Virus record (IMG/VR): IMGVR_UViG_3300049484_000177
Span: 34,384-98,383 of that record
Strand: one strand, 5' to 3'
Length of the DNA: 64,000 bases
DNA from: a virus
Below the pieces are notes generated by a model, which searched no databases, was not told the DNA's origin, and was given only the letters and a program-made list of their open reading frames with translations. Shown piece by piece: positions 10,323 to 36,779 of this stretch. Every line of letters starts with the position of its first letter. The stretch's first letter is position 1. The position numbers and the translations under genes were made by a program.

Positions 10323-10577
10323 ATGGATCACTACAACAAACTCTCGTACCAAGAGATCGAGAAGCTGGTCGATTATATTGACAAGGGGATGCGGACAATG
10401 AATGGTGATACCACCATGATCCCTTTGACAGCAAGGCAGGTAGCCATTCTATTGTGGACCTACGCAAAGAGAACAAGGCCAATGCCAGGGGCTTATATCT
10501 TCGCTGATATTCAGTGTATGCTGAGGGAAGGCCAGCTCTCAAACATTTCTCCGGATGAAAGGAGTCCTTTTGAGTGA
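10323..10577 (+). CDS. hypothetical protein
   Basis: Operon-packed ORF. Confidence 0.55.
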   Translation: MDHYNKLSYQEIEKLVDYIDKGMRTMNGDTTMIPLTARQVAILLWTYAKRTRPMPGAYIFADIQCMLREGQLSNISPDERSPFE

Positions 10578-12805
10578 AAGGATTCTTCAAACGATCTGAT
10601 TTGTTATTGATGGGCAGCAAGCCTGCTAATCTAGCCCCTCGCTGTAAAGTGTGTCGGTTGTATAGGGGATGCAATAGCCCCAAAATGCCGGTTACAGGTG
10701 AGGGTCGGTTAGGTGTGTTAGTGATTGCGGAAGCGCCGGGAGCGAAAGAGGATGAGCGAAACGAGCAGCTTATAGGTAAGGCTGGTCAGCGGCTACGGAG
10801 TACACTCGAACCGTTAGGGGTTGATCTAGACGAGGACTGCTGGAAGACCAATGCAATCATTTGTTTTATAAGTCCAAAAGTGACAATTTATACAAGCAAA
10901 GGTTACAAACAGATAAGTAGAATACAAGTAGGGGATCTCGTGTTAACTGACAAGGGAAGATTCAAGCGAGTAATATCAAGATCTGTGGATCTCCCTTTGC
11001 ATCAAAGACAGAATAAAAGAAAGCTGGTAGATATCAGATTCGCAAACCATAAGTTAACAGTCACGGCAGATCACTTATTTTATACTAGAGATGGATGGAA
11101 AAGAGCAGATCAACTATTAACTGGTGAAGAAGTAAGAGCGCTGGGAGAAAAATGCATAGTTTGTGGTGTTGTGTATTTCAAACAACCAGGTAGGTTCGAT
11201 ACCGCAGAGAGTACATGCTCTCCTTGTTGTCATAACATAATGGTAAGTAGAAAGAACGGACCAGCTATATCAAAGAGCTTGAGACAACAATACGAGACAG
11301 GACAACGTGACCCAATATTAATCACTAACAAAGCTCATTTAGCAGTCAAGAAGCTTATGCTAGATGGTAAATGGGCTGATATGACTGCACGAACTGATGA
11401 AGGAAAAAAGAGGGCCTATAGGACAAATGCACAACTGAGACAAGGACATAATAATCTTAAACCAGGACAATGGATAGGTGATTGGGAGCAAACGATAGCT
11501 AATTATCTAAAATCAGAGAACATAGAATACTTCTCGCAATATGCTATAGGTTCCAGAAATGTAGATTTTTATTTACCTGACCACAAGCTCATGATCGAGG
11601 TAGAAAATAACAATAGACCAGAATCGTACTTCTCCAGAAGAATTAAATTAGCAGAATCAATGGGTTGTAAACTAGTCTTTTTGCAATCAACTAACCCATT
11701 GAGAGAATTGCAGAGATTACTAAAGAATGACACACACAACTATTACTTTACATGGATGCCACTCAAATCAGTAACAATAAGACTCCCCGCACGGCAGGAG
11801 TATCTTTATTGTATCGAAGTAGAGGAGGATGCCAGTTATGTAGCCAAAGGATTAGTCAGCCACAATTGTCGCCCCCCAAATAATAGAACACCAACCGAAG
11901 AGGAGTTAGATTGCTGCCGTCCTAACCTAGTAAAAACCATCGAGGAGTTGCAACCTCATACAATCATTGTATTAGGGGAGGTAGCACTCAGGCAGCTCAT
12001 CAATCCGTGGTGGCACAGAGATATTGGTGGTATAGGAAGGTGGGCCGGATTTAGGATACCACTACAATCGTTGAATGCTTGGGTCTGCCCCACCTGGCAC
12101 CCGTCGTATCTTGAGCGGGAAGGTGCTAAGGATGGTAACGTTCTTCAGTTATGGTTTAGTAAGCATCTAGAATCGGCATTTGAAAAGAAGGAACGTCCTT
12201 GGTCTATAGTACCTAACTACCAAGCCATAGTGGAACAGGCACTCGATCCATCTAGCATCATGGAAGAGATGAAAGACTATAGTGGCATGGCCAGTTTCGA
12301 TTATGAAACAAACATGCTGAAGCCCGATAACAATAAGGCTGCTTGTGTTAGCTGTTCGATTGCTTGGGGTAAGGGTAGAGTATCACGTTGTATTGCTTAT
12401 GTTATGACCGCAGAGAACAAAAGGCTCACCCGATCCTTCTTACGCTCCCCTATTCCGAAGATAGGAGCATCAATCAAGTTCGAAGAGCGTTGGTCGCTGC
12501 GTCATTTCGGAACTAGGGTTCGTAACTGGTTCTGGGACACAATGCTATGTGCTCACGTTTTAGACAATCGGCCAGGCATAACATCCCTTGATTTCCAAGC
12601 ATTCGTTCGATTAGGATTACCAACATACAGTGCTCATATATCTCCGTTGCTCAAAACTAAGGATGGGACAACCGTCAACCAGATCCTAACGGAGATTAGT
12701 ACCTCAGAGCTACTCAAGTATAATGGGCTGGATGCCATATCGGAATTTGAGGTAGCGGTTAGTCAGATGAAGGAGTTGGGTCAACGTCCACCATGGATCT
12801 CTTAG
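10574..12805 (+). CDS. family-4 uracil-DNA glycosylase fused to 3'-5' exonuclease (N-terminal part of split DNA polymerase), intein-containing
   Basis: Cxx[23 protein letters not shown] motifs; Exo motifs FDYET, DTML, YNGLDA. Confidence 0.9.
10862..11866 (+). mobile_element. intein (335 aa) with Vsr/DUF559-like endonuclease
   Basis: Begins CFISPK; block B VTADH; ends VSHN before Cys; removal restores TNAII-CRPP. Confidence 0.9.
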
Positions 12806-12821
12806 AGAAAGGAGATGGACA

Positions 12822-13037
12822 ATGTTAGTGCTATCGAGGAAACGGGGAGAATCGATAATCATTGGGGATGGCATCAAGATCGTCATTGTTGACGTCCGGG
12901 GAGACAAAGTTCGCTTAGGAGTTCAAGCGTCACCAGAAATCCCAGTTCACAGGGAAGAGGTTTACAATGCCATTCAGAGGGAGAAACAAGCCAATACCAA
13001 ATGTGGTGAGGGTTGGTCAGGTAGCCTTTTATTATGA
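12822..13037 (+). CDS. csrA: carbon storage regulator CsrA
   Basis: [15 protein letters not shown]...[16 protein letters not shown]. Confidence 0.95.
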
Positions 13038-13048
13038 TAATCTACTAC

Positions 13049-13160
13049 GACCGAGTGGCGGAAATACCGGGCGATGAGTCCTGTCGGCAGACGCGCCAGC
13101 CTATAGCTGGTGTCTAGGTGCAAATCCTGGGACGTATGGGTTCGAATCCCATCTCGGTCA
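13049..13160 (+). tRNA. atypical tRNA-Leu-like RNA (5-nt anticodon loop, enlarged D loop)
   Basis: Acceptor GACCGAG/CTCGGTC+A; TGGCGGAA...GGCAGACGC; T arm ATGGG-TTCGAAT-CCCAT. Confidence 0.7.
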
Positions 13161-13161
13161 C

Positions 13162-13580
13162 TGAATGAAGTAGTTATGAGCAGCCGTACATCATATAACC
13201 GACCTCATGGTAAATCGCGAAAGCGATGGTCGGGAATTGGTGTTCATGGTTGTCGTAACTGGTGGGCTGAATGGTTGGTATGGGAGGAACCCGCGGGGAA
13301 GGCCCGGCGGTTCCGGATAGTTTCTTCAACGCCATTAGCTCCAACCGGGATAAGCTCCGGTGGCTGTGGGAGAACGCTCGTTAGTAGGCGGGTGCTTCCA
13401 CCTAACATATTCACGAGTGGCTTTGGCTAAACACACGTCCCGGCACGGTAGCATTGCCGGGCATTTCCGTTAGAGCGACACGGCAATAACGTCGTGTGGC
13501 AGCGATGTCAACGTACCCACTGACTCGCTGCAAAAAGCAGTGTGGCCCCGAGCTGCTTGTACAATCTCGGGGCTTATTCA
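13162..13580 (+). ncRNA. candidate large multi-hairpin ncRNA (~420 nt)
   Basis: Closing stem TGAATGAAGT/GCTTATTCA; about 8 radiating hairpins with many G-U pairs; no credible ORF. Confidence 0.65.
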
Positions 13581-13609
13581 ATACTTACCCTTACAAGCAA
13601 AGACTACCT

Positions 13610-14833
13610 ATGGACAATAAACCATCCAAATACAAAGCACCGTTCCCATACTTCGGCAGCAAGAGCATCATAGCTGGGGAGGTATGGAAGAGGTTTGGGA
13701 AGGTGCATAACTATATCGAGCCGTTCTTTGGGTCTGGGGCAGTGTTGTTAGCTCGACCCCTTCCGTTCTCAGGTAAAGAAATATGCAATGACAAGGATGG
13801 CATGGTGAGTAATTTCTGGAGGGCAGTTGCCCACGATCCAGAAAAGGTGGCTCATTATGCTGATTGGCCAATTAACGAAAATGACAAACACGCCCGTCAC
13901 ATATGGTTGGTTAACAGGAAAGATTCATTACAGACCAAACTAGAGGGAGATCCAAATTATTACAACGCGAAGATAGCTGGATGGTGGGTGTGGGGCCTGT
14001 GTCTACATATTGGGGGCGGATTCTGCTCAGGAGAAGGTGGATGGAGAATAATCGATGGAGAATTAACGAGAGGTAATAATGAAGAAGATTCTCCTACTAT
14101 AGATAGGTCGAGACAGCAAACTATAGGAAACAGAGGAGTAGCTAAGGCTGTAACTAGATCCAGGCAACATCTCAAAGGGAATAGAGGAGTAGCTAAGGCT
14201 GTAACTAGATCCAGGCAATATATGGTATCCAGACAAGGAATCATCAAAACAATCACAGAAGAGTGGGGGGTAAACAGGTCTGTTATAAATATAGGAGCCA
14301 AGAGAGGTGTACTAAGATCAAGTGAAAGAGGTAACTCAGAAGGGGCCGGACTAGGCAACGGTACTATTTATGAATGGTTTGATGCACTATGCGGACGTAT
14401 GAAATCGGTCCTGATTTGTTGTGGCGAATGGTATCGTGTGTGTGGGGGAAAGAGAGGGGATGCATTAGCTGCCATGTTATCTGGTGGTCCGACGTGTGGT
14501 GTGTTCTTGGACCCTCCTTATTCTTTTGATGCAGGTCGTGATATGAATCTCTATAGATACGAATCAGGTAGTGTAGCGTATGCCGTGCGTGAATGGTGTC
14601 TAAAATATGGAGACGACTCGCGATTTCGTATAGCGCTCTGTGGGTATGAAAGTGAGCATAATATGCCTGATTCATGGGAGTGTCTAGAGTGGAAAGGCAC
14701 AGGTGGAATGTCTAACATGGCCAAAAAGAAAACCAGAGCGAAAGATAACGCCATACGCGAACGTATATGGTTCTCACCACACTGTCTAAAAGCAAAGGAT
14801 CGTCTTCCACTACTTAAGATGTTAGATAAATAA
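13610..14833 (+). CDS. Dam-like (D12 class) DNA adenine methyltransferase
   Basis: PFPYFGSK, YIEPFFGSGAV, FLDPPY. Confidence 0.9.
   Translation: MDNKPSKYKAPFPYFGSKSIIAGEVWKRFGKVHNYIEPFFGSGAVLLARPLPFSGKEICNDKDGMVSNFWRAVAHDPEKVAHYADWPINENDKHARHIWLVNRKDSLQTKLEGDPNYYNAKIAGWWVWGLCLHIGGGFCSGEGGWRIIDGELTRGNNEEDSPTIDRSRQQTIGNRGVAKAVTRSRQHLKGNRGVAKAVTRSRQYMVSRQGIIKTITEEWGVNRSVINIGAKRGVLRSSERGNSEGAGLGNGTIYEWFDALCGRMKSVLICCGEWYRVCGGKRGDALAAMLSGGPTCGVFLDPPYSFDAGRDMNLYRYESGSVAYAVREWCLKYGDDSRFRIALCGYESEHNMPDSWECLEWKGTGGMSNMAKKKTRAKDNAIRERIWFSPHCLKAKDRLPLLKMLDK
14105..14257 (+). repeat. 51-bp tandem repeat (17-aa unit x3) within the methyltransferase
   Basis: Exact 36-mer at 14132 and 14183; RSRQ...GNRGVAKAVT units. 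Confidence 0.85.
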
Positions 14834-14835
14834 CA

Positions 14836-16224
14836 ATGGCAAGTAATCCAACATCCTTAGATGCTTATAGGCTCATGCACGATGGGTCTATCGCTCTGTC
14901 TCAGTTGGAACATAATGGCATTCGGGTTGATATGGACCATCTCCGCAAAGCAAAGGCTGAAGTGGAGGAATCAATAAGACGTCTCAAAGCTAATCTATTA
15001 TCTAGTGACGTCTACCAAAGCCAGAGAAAGATGTTCGGAGACAAAGCAAAGATCACCAGCCGCCAGCAGTTAGCTAAGGTTCTAGAGAAAGATTATAAGG
15101 CAACCATACCAAAGACCGAAAGCGGTAAGAACTATAACCTGGACGAACTTGTCCTTCAGGCAGTTGCATCCAAACACGACGTCCAATACTGCCGGGACTT
15201 CATGGAACACGAAAGTCTCGTCAAGCTTAATGGTACATATCTGGATGGTGTAATACGGGAGGTTGTGGATGGTTACCTTCACGTTATATTCAATCTACAT
15301 TTGGCTAGGACGCACCGTTCAAGTTGCGATAGCCCAAACCTACAAAATGTACCAATTCGTGATCCTCTCATAGCTAAATACATTCGCACAGCATTCATCC
15401 CACGCCCTGGTCACGCTCTGGTAGAGATCGATTTCAGTGCGTTGGAGTTTCGTATTTGTGCTTGCTTTTATCGTGACCCAGCTATGGTCCAATATGCCAG
15501 CGATCCTGACAAAGACATTCACCGGGATTGTGCAGCTAAGATATTCAAAGCCAACCGGGATGACATAACGAAACAGGATCGTTTCTGTGCAAAGAACCTG
15601 TTCGTGTTCCCCGAGTTGTATGGGGATTTCTACTTACAGTGTGCTCAGAATCTGTGGGATGCTATGAGTAGGCATTCCCTAACCATACAAAACACGCCAG
15701 CAAAGGAGTGGCTGAGCAATAATGGGGTCACTAGGTTAGGTGAATGTGATTCGAAGAAGAAGCCTGTACCTGGCACCTTCGAACATCACATGAAGAAGTT
15801 CGAGGATGAATTCTATCAGTGGTTTCCGGTGCTAGATGAACGTAGGGACAAGTTCTGGGCTGAGTACAAGAAGACCGGTCAGTTCGATCTAATGACTGGG
15901 TTTGTTATTAGGGGTGTGTTCAAACGTAACTTCGTCCTTAACTGTATCATTCAAGGCCCGGCGTTTCACTTGTTGCTGTGGTCCCTGATACAGATAGTTA
16001 GGTGGACCCAAAAGCACAAGACCAAGACAAAGGTAGTGGCACAGATTCACGATAGTATACTGGCCGACGTCCATCTGAGTGAGCTAGATGAGTACATGGA
16101 ATTCGCCGTTAAGGTTATGACCCAAATGGTGAAAGAGCACTATCGTTGGGTTATAACTCCTTTGAATGTAGAGGCTGAAATTGGAAGATTGAACTGGTAC
16201 GAAAAGGAGAAGCTTGCAATATGA
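14836..16224 (+). CDS. polA: family A DNA polymerase, polymerase domain only
   Basis: PNLQNVP, motif A IDFSALEFR, motif B RFCAKNLFVFPELYG, motif C QIHDS. Confidence 0.95.
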   Translation: MASNPTSLDAYRLMHDGSIALSQLEHNGIRVDMDHLRKAKAEVEESIRRLKANLLSSDVYQSQRKMFGDKAKITSRQQLAKVLEKDYKATIPKTESGKNYNLDELVLQAVASKHDVQYCRDFMEHESLVKLNGTYLDGVIREVVDGYLHVIFNLHLARTHRSSCDSPNLQNVPIRDPLIAKYIRTAFIPRPGHALVEIDFSALEFRICACFYRDPAMVQYASDPDKDIHRDCAAKIFKANRDDITKQDRFCAKNLFVFPELYGDFYLQCAQNLWDAMSRHSLTIQNTPAKEWLSNNGVTRLGECDSKKKPVPGTFEHHMKKFEDEFYQWFPVLDERRDKFWAEYKKTGQFDLMTGFVIRGVFKRNFVLNCIIQGPAFHLLLWSLIQIVRWTQKHKTKTKVVAQIHDSILADVHLSELDEYMEFAVKVMTQMVKEHYRWVITPLNVEAEIGRLNWYEKEKLAI

Positions 16225-16967
16225 CTAGTCCAATCAAGGATGAATGGATATCTAAGGATGGCAGGATTAGGTTACTGTTAGGTAACTGTCTGGAGATCCT
16301 ACCAACACTGAAGATCGGAAGTGTGAATATAGTAATTGATCCTCCTTACGGTATTAACGAGAAGTGGGGGTGTGGCAAAGGATGGGTATCAAATGGAATC
16401 AATGGACGTGGTCGACTGTGGAACGGCACACCAGACTGGGACAAAGAACCAGCATGGCGTGAAGTACAAGTTACTCTTGCATTAATACATCATTATGCAA
16501 TTATATGGGGAGGAAACTACTTTGACCTACCACCTGCCTCTGGTTGGTTGGTTTGGGACAAGATGCAAATACACACTGGAAGTCACGCAGAGTTAGCTTG
16601 GTCTAATATACCTCAACCAATACGAACATTCAGAATGAGCCGTATTGATGCTTATGTCAATATTGGGGAATATAAACAACACCCAAACCAGAAACCAACG
16701 AGGTTAATGTCATGGTGCCTGTCATTCATTAAGGGTGACTTGCCCATTCTTGATTCAATGATGGGTTCAGGAACAACTGGTGTGGCTTGTGTTTATGAAG
16801 ATCGTCGATTTATTGGAATTGAAATCGACCCCACCTATTATGAGATTGCTAAGAAGCGTATTCATAATGCAATGACAGATAAATCCAGACGATTTCAACT
16901 CACAAGCACCAAGAAGTTAACTACATCATCTCTGTTCCCAATAGAAAAGAACAAGAGGCCAAAATGA
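16221..16967 (+). CDS. N6A/N4C DNA methyltransferase (beta class)
   Basis: DPPYG, HPNQKP, DSMMGSGTT. Confidence 0.92.
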   Translation: MTSPIKDEWISKDGRIRLLLGNCLEILPTLKIGSVNIVIDPPYGINEKWGCGKGWVSNGINGRGRLWNGTPDWDKEPAWREVQVTLALIHHYAIIWGGNYFDLPPASGWLVWDKMQIHTGSHAELAWSNIPQPIRTFRMSRIDAYVNIGEYKQHPNQKPTRLMSWCLSFIKGDLPILDSMMGSGTTGVACVYEDRRFIGIEIDPTYYEIAKKRIHNAMTDKSRRFQLTSTKKLTTSSLFPIEKNKRPK

Positions 16968-18899: not shown

Positions 18900-20151
18900 G
18901 TGCTTCAAGCTGCCGGACGGCAAGCGGCTGTTCACGGTCAAGCAGGAGGGAGTCAAGCGGATCGACATTATCCCCTATGAAGTACCCGAGGGTGTCCGCA
19001 ATCCCAACGCCCGATCCGGCGAATTGCACATGGAACGGACCTACTACGCCCACCGGGACGTCGGGCCGGATGGTGACATGTACCCCTGCCTGAAGAAGAC
19101 ATTCAACAAGCCCTGCCCTATCTGTGATTACCGGGCCAGCATGCTCAAAGACCCAGACGCCGACGAAGACCTCGTCAAGAGTATGGCTCCCAAGGAACGG
19201 CAGTTGTGGAACGTGTTCGATCACGACGAGCCCGAACGTGGCGTGCAAATCTGGGATGTGTCATTTCATCTGTTCGGCAAGCAGTTAGATGCTCGTGTGC
19301 TGAACTCTGACGAAGAGGACAACTACGAGTTCTACGCCGACCCCGTTGATGGTATGACGCTGAAGGTGGGATTCAAGGAAGAGTCATTCGGTAGGGGCAC
19401 CTTCTACACAACGTCCACCCTCGACTTCAAGGCCAGGAAAACGCCACTGTCGGACGAGTTGTTAGAGCAGGCGTTAGTCCTCGACAGCCTGCTCACCGAG
19501 TACAAATACGACCAGCTCAAAGAGGTCTTCCTGCAAACGGCTGAATCGGATGAAGATGAACCCATCCGTGAGCCAAAGAAGAAGGGCAAACCTCCGGTCG
19601 AGGAAGAGGTCGAGGAAGAAGAGCCTGACGAGGACGTTGATGAGGACGAGGACAACGAGGAGGAGGAGTTAGAGGAGGACGATGAAGAACAGGAAGCAGA
19701 GGACGAAGAAGAGGAGGAAGAGGAGGAGGAGGCTCCCAAATCAAAAAAGGCAAGTGCCGCGACTGCGGCAAAGACTTCATCCCCACCAACGAAATCAACG
19801 ACTACTGCGAAAACTGCCTCCCCTTCTAAGTCTAAGCCATCCCCAAAGACGGCCAAAGACTTCGGCATCGCCGTGAAAGACATCGTTGATCACGAAGAGT
19901 TCGGTGAGTGCGAAGTGGTGGCCATTAGCAAGGATGGATCGGCCGTCTATGTCATGGACAAGAAGAACAAGAAGCATTCGGTCGGCCCGGAGGAGTTGAC
20001 CAAGGTCGAGTTCGAGGACGATGAACCAGAGGAGAAAGAAAAGCCCAAGGCCAAATCCAAACCCACGGCCACAACATCCAAGGGCAAGGGAATGCCCGCC
20101 GCCAAGGAGGAAGAGGAAGAGTGGGATGAGGATTGGGACGAGGAAGGATAG
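18811..20151 (+). CDS. gp32-like single-stranded DNA-binding protein with long acidic tail
   Basis: YYAH...CLKK...CPIC Zn motif; ends EEEWDEDWDEEG; upstream of RecA. Confidence 0.8.
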   Translation: MVSQREKREQRKKLSGRKRAEEHKSGFETKCFKLPDGKRLFTVKQEGVKRIDIIPYEVPEGVRNPNARSGELHMERTYYAHRDVGPDGDMYPCLKKTFNKPCPICDYRASMLKDPDADEDLVKSMAPKERQLWNVFDHDEPERGVQIWDVSFHLFGKQLDARVLNSDEEDNYEFYADPVDGMTLKVGFKEESFGRGTFYTTSTLDFKARKTPLSDELLEQALVLDSLLTEYKYDQLKEVFLQTAESDEDEPIREPKKKGKPPVEEEVEEEEPDEDVDEDEDNEEEELEEDDEEQEAEDEEEEEEEEEAPKSKKASAATAAKTSSPPTKSTTTAKTASPSKSKPSPKTAKDFGIAVKDIVDHEEFGECEVVAISKDGSAVYVMDKKNKKHSVGPEELTKVEFEDDEPEEKEKPKAKSKPTATTSKGKGMPAAKEEEEEWDEDWDEEG

Positions 20152-20170
20152 GAAGAGTAGTTCACACCCC

Positions 20171-20235
20171 TCCCAGCCGGTTGATCCTCCCGTTTAGAGG
20201 CCCTTCACGGTGGTTGATCCCGGCTGGGACTTTTT
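20171..20235 (+). terminator. long hairpin terminator after SSB
   Basis: TCCCAGCCGG/CCGGCTGGGA followed by TTTTT. Confidence 0.55.
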
Positions 20236-20242
20236 GGTCCAT

Positions 20243-20389
20243 GAGTGTAGGTATAACGGATGGAACCAGAGACCTGGCACTGCTCCCATAACGACGTCTC
20301 AAACCTTCCGACGTATCTTTCACTCGATGCAAACTGGAAGCGTTATGACAACGTATGGAAGTACGAAAACGCTTGCGATGCGTAGTGCC
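20243..20389 (+). ncRNA. candidate pseudoknotted RNA upstream of the tRNA
   Basis: GGCACT/AGTGCC, CATAACG/CGTTATG, CTTCC/GGAAG, GAGTG/CACTC pairings. Confidence 0.45.
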
Positions 20390-20440
20390 GAACTATTTCG
20401 TCACGCTCCCGGCTGGGAATGGAACCAGTGCGGGAGTATT

Positions 20441-20514
<74 letters not shown>

Positions 20515-20533
20515 TTATTGAAGGGAGAGACAC

Positions 20534-29986: not shown

Positions 29987-30096
29987 TGCGGCGGCGTGGC
30001 GACGTACACGCAGGCATTTCGGAGCTTACCACAAAGCCAGAGTTACCTCCAATATCTCTGGCCGGTAAAGGATTCCGTTCGACTCGGAACCACGCA
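29987..30096 (+). ncRNA. degenerate tRNA-like element
   Basis: D-like arm GCGTG/CACGC; T arm TTCCG-TTCGACT-CGGAA; imperfect acceptor TGCGG/CCACGCA. Confidence 0.5.
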
Positions 30097-35354: not shown

Positions 35355-36779
35355 ATGACTAAAGAAACACAAGAGGAACTACTCAAAATGCTCGACATTG
35401 GTCTTTCCGATGTTGGGGATGAGGAGTTATTGGCGGAGGGTCTGTCCTTCGACGAGTTTGGTCCCGAAGATAGGGAAGAGGAGCTATCCGAAACGGTTCT
35501 TCGACAGGATGATTGGGATCGAGCAGTAGGGGAGGAAGTTATGAGGCGGCACAGCTTAGGCGACGACGCTAAAGCTGTGGCTGACTTCCACAGCGCCTCA
35601 TACCATCTGTCACCAGAGCCTGCTGGCAAATGTATCAACAAACGTCGGCAGGAATTCATGGACACACTGATGGAATCTCCCGAGTACAAGCAGCTACACG
35701 AATCTACTCGCCAGAATCGTCTGGCTAGTGAGGTGGCTGCTGTACGGTTCACAAGGCAATACCAAGCCTTGGTAGAGAAGGATAAGAAGAATCCACCTGC
35801 CGGGATGGGATTGCCTGGTGAGGGAGAGGGAGAACCGGATGGGAACGTCCTAGTGGCGGTTGGTAAGGCTGTGCAAGGGGCACAGGAGGAAGTGGATCAG
35901 ATCGAAGATATGACTTCCGCCTTGGGTGGGGATATCGGTGGCTTGGGACAGGGCGACGCAGCCCAGTCCGCGAACATCGATAAGATCCGCGATACCTACG
36001 AACGTCTCCGCGGTAGCAAACGGCTGCGGGACATCTTCGAGCGTGCTGGGGCTTACATTCGATCAGCCAAAGGATTGCAGAAAAACAAGACCCAGCACGG
36101 ATTCGACGATATCGTAGGAGTGGAACAGGCCGGAGACGTAGGACGTCTGCTGGCTAGTGAGTTAGCCTACCTCGACGACCCTGACTTGGAACTGGATCTG
36201 CTTCGGCGGATCGTGGAGAACCAAGCCATGTGCCAACTGTACCAAGGGGTCGAGGCACAAATGAAAGGTCCGGTCGTAGTAGTGGTTGACGAAAGCGGGT
36301 CGATGGCTGGTGCACCAATCGCCAATGCGAAAGCATTAGCATTGGCAATGGCATGGATCGCCAAGCACCAGAAACGGTGGTGTGCGTTGGTGGGATTCTC
36401 CGGTGGCACCAGTGGGACGATGTGTGTACTGAAGCCGGGTAAATGGGACCAATCAGACTTGTTAGATTGGTTGGATCATTTCTACGGCGGAGGCACCACA
36501 TTGGATGTACCGCTCGATAAGCTGCCCAATGAGCACTGGGCAGCAATGGACCCCCCACGAGGGAAAACGGACGTAATCATGGTCACGGATGCTATGGTTA
36601 CGGCTCCTCAGCGGATGGTGGAGCAGTTCAACGCGTGGAAGGTGAAGGAAAAGGTTCGTTGCATCTCCATAGTCCTTGGCTCACGGGCTGGGGACCTAGA
36701 GAAGGTTAGCAACGAAGTACATTGCATTCCGGGGTTGACCGTGGATTGCACGGCGGCTGCAAGTTGTATGTCAATCTAA
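35355..36779 (+). CDS. VWA-domain protein (ViaA-like partner)
   Basis: MIDAS DESGSM, GGGT, VTDA. Confidence 0.9.
   Translation: MTKETQEELLKMLDIGLSDVGDEELLAEGLSFDEFGPEDREEELSETVLRQDDWDRAVGEEVMRRHSLGDDAKAVADFHSASYHLSPEPAGKCINKRRQEFMDTLMESPEYKQLHESTRQNRLASEVAAVRFTRQYQALVEKDKKNPPAGMGLPGEGEGEPDGNVLVAVGKAVQGAQEEVDQIEDMTSALGGDIGGLGQGDAAQSANIDKIRDTYERLRGSKRLRDIFERAGAYIRSAKGLQKNKTQHGFDDIVGVEQAGDVGRLLASELAYLDDPDLELDLLRRIVENQAMCQLYQGVEAQMKGPVVVVVDESGSMAGAPIANAKALALAMAWIAKHQKRWCALVGFSGGTSGTMCVLKPGKWDQSDLLDWLDHFYGGGTTLDVPLDKLPNEHWAAMDPPRGKTDVIMVTDAMVTAPQRMVEQFNAWKVKEKVRCISIVLGSRAGDLEKVSNEVHCIPGLTVDCTAAASCMSI

What the first reader, a model, noticed from the sequence alone, without database searches (positions are those of the whole stretch)
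13162..13580. ~420-nt wheel-shaped RNA between csrA/tRNA-like element and a methyltransferase
Seen: the ends pair (TGAATGAAGT/GCTTATTCA) and enclose successive hairpins. One is a long arm AGTTATG-GCAGCCGT-ACATCA-CCGACC capped by ATCGC-GAAA-GCGAT; others are GGGCTGAATGG/CCATTAGCTC, ACCGG/CCGGT, GTGGGAG/CTTCCAC, CCCGGCA/TGCCGGG, ACACGGC/GTCGTGT, GCAGCGA/TCGCTGC and CCCCGAG/CTCGGGG. It starts one base after the tRNA-like element, so tRNA processing could release it. Inference: a new phage ncRNA, possibly tied to the adjacent CsrA (it holds several GGA, far fewer than CsrB).
Basis: partly seen in the sequence, partly recalled or inferred. Interest (0 to 1): 0.72.

Follow-up and report, generated by a model that had tools for sequence, protein, structure and literature searches.

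The report
Orphan folded RNA stretch beside phage tRNA-mimic
A 420-base gene-free stretch in an uncultured phage folds into unusually stable hairpins on the transcribed strand and is probably a structured RNA, but it has no relatives anywhere I could search, so its function cannot be confirmed, and it is not a CsrA-binding decoy.

Summary
The + strand folds far better than shuffled sequence (z -5.05; 21 other tiles of this window average -0.07, sd 1.3). Most of that signal comes from one 89-nt arm (13172-13260, z -6.2). The end-to-end 'wheel' closure is a suboptimal alternative, 5.6 kcal/mol worse than the best fold. The stretch is non-coding by codon usage, by stops in all six frames, and by Pfam and PHROG searches.

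In the nearest relative, csrA abuts pol directly. The tRNA-like element, this RNA and the Dam methyltransferase therefore form a 1.8-kb insertion.

No Rfam family matches. No similar sequence or fold turned up in about 220 related viral loci, 44 whole related virus records, phage and plasmid collections, or exact 21-35-base pattern scans of viral, metagenome and genome contigs. Covariation therefore cannot be tested.

The CsrA-sponge idea fails: 7 GGA (shuffles give 8.7), no ANGGA, and most are base-paired.

My best reading (0.35) is a structured intercistronic leader or processing module of the dam-pol message, with its 5' end set by tRNA-type processing. Rivals are a free GOLLD/ROOL-like RNA (0.25) and a functionless remnant (0.25).

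This scan has noted the same stretch twice, and similar tRNA-linked phage RNAs on other DNA.

The parts
12822..13037 (+). Phage csrA gene (71 aa), the upstream neighbour. Homology to the relative's CsrA ends at residue 57 (about 12992).
   Evidence: Pfam PF02599 at 8e-24; PHROG 9500; 49% identity to L063 CsrA over residues 1-57.
13014..13041 (+). Promoter-like site (TGGTCA, 16 nt spacer, GATAAT) ending about 7 nt before the tRNA-like 5' end. It could be the cassette's own promoter, but the evidence is weak.
   Evidence: Consensus scan. The number of such sites in the region is at chance level (12 found, 13.8 expected), and no recurring promoter word was found in the genome.
13049..13160 (+). 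tRNA-Leu-like element. It has a 7-bp acceptor, a canonical T arm (ATGGG-TTCGAAT-CCCAT), A73, a D-loop insert of about 20 nt, an abnormal anticodon loop and no encoded CCA. It probably serves as an RNase P / 3'-processing handle.
   Evidence: Sequence. ARAGORN calls 13069-13161 tRNA-Ile(tat). Rfam gives only 18 bits to tRNA-Sec, below threshold. The cloverleaf-like fold scores z -2.25.
13162..13580 (+). The candidate structured RNA (419 nt, 54% G+C against 48.6% for the genome).
   Evidence: Minimum free energy -175.8 kcal/mol, z -5.05. It is the most stable + strand tile of the window. Non-coding. No Rfam match.
13172..13260 (+). Domain 1: an 89-nt irregular long hairpin with 34 pairs (4 of them G-U), a 9-nt one-sided bulge and a GAAA tetraloop. 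Its shape suits an RNase III substrate.
   Evidence: z -6.22, and the minimum-energy fold equals the centroid. Pair probabilities are near 1. Pair counts.
13261..13346 (+). Domain 2: an arm closed by GGGCTGAATGG/CCATTAGCTC, with an inner G+C-rich hairpin.
   Evidence: Folds at z -1.31, a poorly defined ensemble. Helix positions.
13366..13401 (+). Hairpin GTGGGAG...CTTCCAC.
13439..13461 (+). Hairpin CCCGGCA...TGCCGGG. Its 3' side (13452-13469) is also 83% complementary to the D-loop insert of the tRNA-like element (13059-13076).
   Evidence: The complementarity is not significant (about 9% of shuffles do as well).
13478..13497 (+). Hairpin ACACGGC...GTCGTGT.
13499..13531 (+). Hairpin GCAGCGA...TCGCTGC.
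13546..13572 (+). 3' hairpin CCCCGAG...CTCGGGG, followed by CTTATTCAAT. At best a weak, leaky terminator.
   Evidence: The terminator scan did not call it (13-nt loop, poor T run).
13581..13609 (+). An unstructured A/C-rich spacer of 29 nt before the dam start codon, with no Shine-Dalgarno match.
   Evidence: Unpaired in the fold of 13049-13612. Sequence shown.
13610..14833 (+). D12-class (Dam-type) DNA adenine methyltransferase, 407 aa. It is the downstream gene and part of the same 1.8-kb insertion.
   Evidence: Pfam PF02086. Thousands of homologues, at most about 52% identical. Homology starts at the ATG at 13610, not upstream.

Best explanation
The stretch is a genuine non-coding, + strand RNA structure belonging to a 1.8-kb cassette: a possible promoter, a tRNA-like element, this RNA, then dam. 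The cassette was inserted between csrA and the polymerase gene of an uncultured ~98-kb phage.

The proposed mechanism is as follows.
1. The region is transcribed with the + strand replication operon, and perhaps also from a promoter-like site at 13014-13041.
2. The tRNA-like element is recognised by host tRNA-processing enzymes, RNase P at 13049 and a 3' endonuclease after A73 at 13160. This cuts the polycistronic RNA.
3. The 420-nt hairpin chain is left as the 5' end of the dam-pol message.
4. There it acts in cis as a processing and stability module. The 34-bp arm is a plausible RNase III site or a 5' protective structure. The following hairpins protect the message or partly terminate transcription. 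The last 29 nt before the dam ATG stay open for ribosomes.

Shown: non-coding status, exceptional strand-specific fold stability, the insertion relative to kin, and the lack of a CsrB-like design. Inferred: transcription, the cleavage sites and the cis role.
For: - **Stability:** fold z is -5.05 against a window background of -0.07 +/- 1.3. It is the most stable + strand tile of 152, while the - strand is ordinary. Twenty-two of 143 pairs are G-U, which only work on the + strand.
- **Non-coding:** the best of six frames scores -0.225 on codon-usage log-likelihood, against 0.26 +/- 0.12 for coding windows. There are mixed stops in all frames. Pfam and PHROG find nothing. There is no remnant of the ParB domain that long Dam homologues carry.
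- **Transcription context:** all neighbouring genes are on the + strand in one tight operon.
- **Insertion:** the closest relative, L063, has exo, csrA and pol with no gap, and L064 has exo then pol. The RNA therefore came in together with the tRNA-like element and dam.
- **Architecture:** the stretch is a chain of hairpins with one dominant long arm rather than an ornate multi-junction fold. That fits cis-acting phage intercistronic elements.
- **Open start region:** the dam start region is unpaired.
- **Processing signals:** the tRNA-like element has the acceptor and T-arm features that RNase P and 3'-processing enzymes use (established knowledge of tRNA processing).
Against: - No homologue exists in anything searchable, so there is no covariation or conservation support.
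- No expression or end-mapping data could be obtained.
- 420 nt is long for a leader.
- Outside the 89-nt arm the fold scores are modest and alternative folds compete.
- Gaps upstream of pol in ten relatives are not strongly structured, so the position itself does not demand such an element.
- The promoter-like site is no better than chance.
Confidence: 0.35

Rival explanations
1. It is a stand-alone, stable, trans-acting or scaffold RNA of the kind represented by GOLLD and ROOL, the large phage RNAs encoded next to tRNAs. It would be cut free at its 5' end by tRNA 3' processing and ended by the 13546-13572 hairpin. Its function would be unrelated to dam.
For: It starts one base after a tRNA-like element in a phage. 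GOLLD and ROOL are often near tRNAs in phages and prophages, and one GOLLD lies directly downstream of tRNA-Met (PMC5737381; bioRxiv 10.1101/2024.12.08.627333). Fold stability is very high, the G+C content is raised and the stretch is non-coding. A GAAA tetraloop and a terminal hairpin are present.
Against: GOLLD, ROOL and every other Rfam model fail to match even at E of 10. The predicted fold is a chain of hairpins without well-supported multi-stem junctions or pseudoknots. The 3' hairpin is not a convincing terminator. No homologues were found, whereas known ornate RNAs are families. Single-sequence models R1 and R2 hit only the stretch itself.
Confidence: 0.25
2. It is a functionless remnant. 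Foreign DNA was dragged in with the dam cassette, perhaps a decayed tRNA-region spacer, and is tolerated between genes. Its hairpins reflect its origin or composition, not selection in this phage.
For: It is a singleton, with no relative in about 220 loci, 44 whole related virus records, or the phage, plasmid, metagenome and genome scans. It lies in a known insertion hot spot between exo and pol. The neighbouring tRNA-like element is itself degenerate. Domains other than the long arm fold only modestly better than chance.
Against: A z of -5 is well outside the genome's background. An 89-nt arm with 34 pairs, G-U pairs and a GNRA loop is unlikely to survive drift. Phage genomes are compact: only 8 gaps of 150 nt or more were left by a permissive ORF call across 98 kb.
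Confidence: 0.25
3. It is a CsrB/RsmZ-like decoy RNA that titrates the CsrA encoded just upstream.
For: It is adjacent to csrA and contains some GGA triplets.
Against: There are 7 GGA against 8.7 +/- 2.5 in shuffles, and a lower density than the window average. There is no ANGGA, and only one GGA lies in a clearly unpaired stretch. No Rfam Csr/Rsm family matches. The closest relative keeps csrA without the RNA. Fifty-nine other phage csrA loci have nothing similar.
Confidence: 0.03
4. It is a DNA-level element, such as a replication origin, a primosome or recombination site, or a packaging signal, lying within the replication module.
For: It lies between replication genes and has many inverted repeats.
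Against: It is G+C-rich rather than A+T-rich. No iterons or direct-repeat families were found. The stability is strand-asymmetric, with many G-U pairs. It is absent from relatives, which must also replicate.
Confidence: 0.05
5. It is a protein-coding gene or pseudogene, for example the 106-aa ORF at 13110-13430 or a decayed N-terminal domain of the methyltransferase.
For: An ORF of 106 aa and three 56-aa ORFs on the minus strand exist. Many Dam homologues carry an extra N-terminal ParB-like domain of about 160 aa.
Against: Codon-usage scores in all six frames are below every coding window tested. Pfam and PHROG find nothing. tblastn with 119 Dam homologues finds nothing upstream of 13610 beyond chance. 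The 106-aa ORF overlaps the tRNA-like element. All frames carry mixed stops, so no recoding opens it.
Confidence: 0.03

Closest known systems
GOLLD (RF01998) and ROOL (RF03087) large phage and prophage RNAs
   Same: Encoded in a phage, several hundred nt long, non-coding, strongly folded, and placed directly beside a tRNA-type gene. GOLLD env-38 lies downstream of tRNA-Met and tRNAs can be linked to GOLLD.
   Different: No covariance-model match at any threshold. It is shorter (419 nt against about 580-800). The predicted fold is a chain of hairpins without supported multi-stem junctions or pseudoknots. It is a singleton rather than a family.
Intercistronic RNase III processing hairpins of phage T7 early mRNA, and tRNA-punctuated operons such as E. 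coli tyrU-tufB (from general knowledge)
   Same: It lies between cistrons of a phage polycistronic unit and contains a long irregular hairpin (34 bp) of the size RNase III accepts. It is preceded by a tRNA-shaped element that tRNA-processing enzymes could cut.
   Different: T7 sites are single hairpins of about 50-60 nt, whereas this is 420 nt with about eight hairpins. No cleavage data exist. The sequence is unrelated.
CsrB / CsrC / RsmX-Y-Z CsrA-sequestering RNAs
   Same: A non-coding RNA of similar length (CsrB is about 370 nt), built of many hairpins and next to a csrA gene.
   Different: It lacks the defining repeated GGA/ANGGA loops and matches no Rfam family. It is not linked to csrA in relatives.
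Phage T4 species 1 and 2 RNAs (rnaC, rnaD), stable RNAs co-transcribed with the tRNA cluster
   Same: A stable-looking non-tRNA RNA transcribed in line with a tRNA-type gene in a lytic-type phage, presumably released by tRNA-processing enzymes, with unknown function.
   Different: The T4 species are about 120-140 nt, while this is three times longer. There is no sequence relation.
YrlA-type bacterial and phage Y RNAs
   Same: A tRNA-like module joined to further helices in a phage RNA.
   Different: There is no Ro60/TROVE gene in the phage and no Rfam match. The tRNA-like part here is a complete cloverleaf-like unit at the 5' side, not a module closed by a Ro-binding stem.

Membership tests
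CsrB/Rsm sponge RNAs | Many GGA (ideally ANGGA) motifs, enriched over chance and exposed in hairpin loops or single-stranded linkers | tested here: not met
   There are 7 GGA against 8.7 +/- 2.5 in shuffles and 0 ANGGA. Six of the 7 are mostly or partly paired.
CsrB/Rsm sponge RNAs | Match to an Rfam Csr/Rsm covariance model | tested here: not met
   No such match at E up to 10.
CsrB/Rsm sponge RNAs | High-affinity multi-site binding of CsrA | not testable with these tools
   Needs a gel shift or footprint.
GOLLD / ROOL ornate phage RNAs | Match to RF01998 or RF03087 | tested here: not met
   cmscan of 13030-13625 with lax filters at E up to 10 gave no hit.
GOLLD / ROOL ornate phage RNAs | Phage or prophage location next to tRNA genes | tested here: met
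   It is in a virus record with terminal repeats and starts one base after a tRNA-like element.
GOLLD / ROOL ornate phage RNAs | Conserved multi-stem junctions and pseudoknots supported by covariation | not testable with these tools
   No homologue was found in any collection.
Group I / group II introns | Match to intron covariance models, and flanking exons that join into one gene | tested here: not met
   No Rfam match. The flanks are complete separate genes with their own stop and start. Relatives have csrA and pol as separate adjacent genes.
tmRNA (one-piece or permuted) | Detection by ARAGORN or Rfam, a G3:U70 alanine identity pair, and a tag reading frame | tested here: not met
   ARAGORN and Rfam find none. 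The acceptor pair 3:70 is C:G.
YrlA / Y RNA | Partner Ro60 (TROVE) gene and a match to the Rfam model | tested here: not met
   No TROVE domain in the 98-kb genome and no Rfam match. A host-encoded Ro60 cannot be excluded.
Phage intercistronic RNase III / tRNA-punctuation processing elements | Location between cistrons of one transcription unit on the coding strand | tested here: met
   All genes from 10574 to 16967 are on the + strand and tightly packed.
Phage intercistronic RNase III / tRNA-punctuation processing elements | An irregular double-stranded stem of about 20 bp or more, and/or a tRNA-shaped substrate | tested here: met
   A 34-pair arm with z -6.2, and a tRNA-like element with a 7-bp acceptor and a canonical T arm.
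Phage intercistronic RNase III / tRNA-punctuation processing elements | Demonstrated cleavage by RNase III, RNase P or RNase Z | not testable with these tools
Intrinsic terminator at the 3' end | A G+C-rich hairpin with a short loop, followed directly by a T run | tested here: not met
   The scan calls nothing at 13546-13580. The loop is 13 nt and the tail is CTTATTCAAT.

The most novel reading that the evidence does not exclude
The stretch is the founding member of a new class of tRNA-tethered large phage RNA. It would be a ~420-530-nt RNA made in one piece with an anticodon-defective tRNA-Leu mimic, which serves as its processing or assembly handle. It would travel with a Dam methyltransferase as a mobile cassette into the replication operon, and act in trans, for example as a scaffold or decoy during infection.
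Probability: 0.15. Interest if true: 0.6.

Novelty: new member of a known kind. Interest (0 to 1): 0.3.

Why it matters
If real, it adds one more case to the growing but functionally unexplained set of large structured RNAs that phages place beside tRNA-type genes. It also offers a concrete example in which a tRNA mimic may punctuate a replication operon and set the 5' end of a structured leader for a DNA methyltransferase and polymerase message. As a singleton from an uncultured phage, without transcript or covariation evidence, it does not make any open question directly testable at present. The clear negative result, that it is not a CsrA sponge despite its neighbour, removes the most eye-catching reading.

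Tried and rejected
**Known RNA families.** Rfam was run on 3 kb and then on 596 nt with lax filters. Only sub-threshold noise came back (MEG8_1, STnc310, tRNA-Sec at 18 bits).

**Sequence homologues.**
- blastn (11-base words) against 50,697 phage records and 72,556 plasmids found nothing.
- nhmmer and blastn against 59 csrA loci, 2 plus 80 Dam loci and 80 PolA loci found only T-loop words.
- BLAST over 44 whole related virus records found only 14-17-nt T-loop matches, one of which is an ordinary tRNA in L094.

**Structure homologues.** Single-sequence covariance models R1 (13172-13260) and R2 (13436-13580) hit only the stretch itself in 44 whole records and 80 Dam loci.

**Pattern scans.**
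- The T-arm plus acceptor 23-mer gave 0 hits in viral and genome contigs.
- A 21-mer from the arm apex gave one metagenome hit. It is a chance match inside a coding gene.
- A 21-mer from the 3' domain gave 0 hits in viral contigs.
- A double-T-loop pattern found one unrelated contig, L233.

**Positional analogues.** Gaps upstream of pol in ten relatives are not strongly folded. The 416-nt gap in L063 has z -0.2.

**Other ideas tested and dropped.**
- A ParB-domain remnant.
- An alternative upstream start for dam.
- Small-ORF or recoded coding capacity.
- RT, Ro60 or RtcB partners in the genome.
- Paralogues within the genome.
- Significance of the 18-nt complementarity between the tRNA-like D-loop insert and 13452-13469, which about 9% of shuffles match.
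- A recurring promoter word.
- Flanking direct repeats of the cassette. Only a 9-nt inverted word was found, and its right copy lies in conserved dam coding sequence.

Full report
**Setting.** The window is bases 34384-98383 of a 98,383-bp IMG/VR virus record with direct terminal repeats. All genes around the finding are on the + strand.

| Coordinates | Feature |
|---|---|
| 10574-12805 | Protein with a uracil-DNA-glycosylase domain, an intein and a 3'-5' exonuclease |
| 12822-13037 | CsrA homologue (PF02599, 8e-24) |
| 13038-13609 | ORF-poor gap |
| 13610-14833 | D12-class (Dam-type) adenine methyltransferase |
| 14836-16224 | Family A polymerase domain |
| 16221-16967 | Second methylase |

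The gap holds a tRNA-Leu-like element at 13049-13160 (ARAGORN calls 13069-13161 tRNA-Ile(tat)). After one base, the candidate RNA runs from 13162 to 13580.

- The 419-nt + strand folds at -175.8 kcal/mol, z -5.05 against dinucleotide shuffles.
- Twenty-one random tiles of the same length from this window give a mean z of -0.07, sd 1.3, minimum -3.3.
- After regression on G+C it is the most stable of 152 + strand tiles (-2.8 sd), while its reverse complement is ordinary (-0.5 sd). The - strand folds 32 kcal/mol worse.
- Twenty-two of the 143 predicted pairs are G-U, which points to an RNA-level structure on the + strand.
- The signal is uneven. The 89-nt arm at 13172-13260 scores z -6.2 and has a single dominant fold. 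It has 34 pairs, a 9-nt one-sided bulge and a GAAA loop. The remaining pieces score -1.3 to -2.6.
- The end-to-end pairing that would close a wheel is imperfect, is not in the best fold, and costs 5.6 kcal/mol if enforced. A 13-bp helix between 13348-13360 and 13567-13579 competes with it.
- When the tRNA-like element is included, the best fold instead pairs its D-loop insert (13059-13076) with 13452-13469. That complementarity is not significant, since about 9% of shuffles do as well.

**Is it coding?** No.
- The best of six frames scores -0.225 on a codon-usage log-likelihood trained on this phage's long genes. Coding windows of the same length score 0.26 +/- 0.12, with none below 0.005.
- All six frames carry a mix of TAA, TAG and TGA, so no alternative code opens it.
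- The 106-aa ORF at 13110-13430 and the three 56-aa minus-strand ORFs match nothing in Pfam or PHROGs.
- Many Dam homologues carry an extra N-terminal ParB-like domain. tblastn with 119 homologues finds no trace of it upstream of 13610, and true homology starts at the ATG at 13610.

**Is it a known RNA?** No. Rfam 15 gives nothing above noise on 3 kb. The same holds with lax filters at E up to 10 on 596 nt, for GOLLD, ROOL, Csr/Rsm RNAs, introns, RNase P, tmRNA, riboswitches and small ribozymes. The phage has no Ro60/TROVE, reverse transcriptase or RtcB gene that might point to a Y-RNA-like, retron-like or ligase-linked RNA.

**Evolutionary context.** The polymerase domain identifies a clade of uncultured phages of about 85-100 kb that carry a stand-alone polymerase gene of about 460 aa. 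The nearest cultured phages are at most 28% identical.
- In the closest accessible relative (L063, 55% PolA identity) the order is exo, csrA, pol with no spacer. In L064 it is exo then pol.
- CsrA homology between the two phages ends at residue 57.
- The tRNA-like element, the RNA and dam are therefore a 1.8-kb insertion into a junction that is an insertion hot spot in this clade. Ten of 73 relatives have gaps of 200 nt or more upstream of pol, and others have extra genes between exo and pol.
- None of those gaps is strongly folded (z +1.6 to -2.6).

**Search for homologues.** This was the decisive test and it came back empty.
- There was no similarity in the phage or plasmid collections, in 59 csrA loci, 82 Dam loci and 80 PolA loci, or in 44 whole related virus records.
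- Single-sequence covariance models of the arm and of the 3' domain hit only the stretch itself.
- Exact-word scans of viral, metagenome and genome contigs gave only a chance match inside a coding gene (L151) and one unrelated contig (L233).
- Dam's best homologues are about 52% identical and PolA's about 60%, so no near relative of this phage exists in the protein collections either.
- Conservation, covariation and expression therefore all remain untested.

**The CsrA idea.** It is rejected.
- The RNA has 7 GGA triplets where shuffles give 8.7 +/- 2.5. It has no ANGGA, and only one GGA lies in a clearly unpaired stretch.
- csrA occurs without this RNA in the closest relative.
- In other phages csrA sometimes sits in tRNA islands, as in L009 where tRNA-Leu genes flank it. 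That may explain the neighbourhood without any functional link.

**Most likely mechanism.**
- The region lies inside a + strand operon, so it is almost certainly transcribed.
- The tRNA-like element has what RNase P and the 3' processing enzymes need: a 7-bp acceptor stacked on a canonical T arm, A73 and no encoded CCA. This rests on established knowledge of tRNA processing.
- Cutting there would separate the exo-csrA message from what follows. It would leave the 420-nt hairpin chain as the 5' end of the dam-pol message.
- The 34-bp irregular arm has the size of an RNase III substrate or a 5' stabiliser.
- The 29 nt before the dam ATG are predicted to be open.

I therefore favour a cis-acting intercistronic processing and stability module (0.35). 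A free, GOLLD/ROOL-like trans-acting RNA is at 0.25, supported by the tRNA adjacency that those families share. A functionless hitch-hiking remnant is also at 0.25. A CsrA sponge, a DNA-level element and a coding remnant share the rest.

**Novelty and score.** If functional, it is a new, so far single, member of a known kind: structured non-coding RNA linked to tRNA-type genes in phages. This scan has noted the same stretch twice, and similar tRNA-linked large phage RNAs on other DNA. Without relatives, transcripts or a testable function, the interest is modest (0.3).

Noticed in passing
L233:6462-7368 (IMGVR_UViG_3300014205_000419): An ORF-free stretch of about 900 nt on the + strand that ends in a strong bidirectional terminator. 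It contains two T-loop-like motifs (GGTGCAAATCC and GGGTTCGAATCCC) next to a hairpin with a 5-bp stem and 5-nt loop, an arrangement resembling the tRNA-like element of this window. There is no Rfam match and no ARAGORN tRNA. Apart from 36 nt it is unrelated to the finding. It is a possible separate large RNA with a tRNA-mimic core.
   Followed up: partly
L233:10772-11119: The same viral contig carries a permuted (alpha-type, two-piece) tmRNA gene, scoring 82 bits to RF04321 and 73 bits to RF01849.
   Followed up: no
window 12805-14836; L063:5589-8365; L064:190-2423: The exo-pol junction of this phage clade is an insertion hot spot. Some relatives have exo directly followed by pol, the closest has csrA between them, and this phage also has a tRNA mimic, the RNA and dam. 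Others carry unrelated small genes or gaps of 200-600 nt there.
   Followed up: partly
window 14100-14230: The Dam methyltransferase contains a tandem in-frame repeat (RGVAKAVTRSRQ twice). Homologues show the same kind of repeated G-V-N-R-x-R-V-H-L unit in this insert between the N-terminal and DPPY parts. Many homologues also carry an N-terminal ParB-like domain that this copy lacks.
   Followed up: no
L009:3897-4292: In a 298-kb phage contig, csrA sits inside a tRNA array, flanked directly by tRNA-Leu(UAA) and tRNA-Leu(CAA). In L058 and L030 a tRNA-Met lies just upstream of csrA. Phage csrA genes seem to recur in tRNA islands.
   Followed up: no
window 13059-13076 and 13452-13469: There is an 18-nt, 83% complementarity between the D-loop insert of the tRNA-like element and a hairpin of the RNA. 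The best fold of 13049-13612 uses it and breaks the cloverleaf. It is statistically unremarkable (about 9% of shuffles), but it could be tested as a switch.
   Followed up: yes
window 35616-36034 and 20113-20531: These are the second and fourth most stable + strand tiles of the window after G+C correction (-2.4 and -1.9 sd). They coincide with the repeated structured leaders and the tRNA-Met leader noted by other first-stage findings. This phage seems rich in + strand RNA structure.
   Followed up: no
window 30073-30089: A third perfect T-arm-like motif (TTCCG-TTCGACT-CGGAA) on the + strand, outside any predicted tRNA.
   Followed up: no
window 13002-13010 and 14773-14781: A 9-nt inverted word (TGTGGTGAG / CTCACCACA) lies near the two ends of the inserted cassette. 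The right copy is inside conserved dam coding sequence, so it is probably chance.
   Followed up: partly
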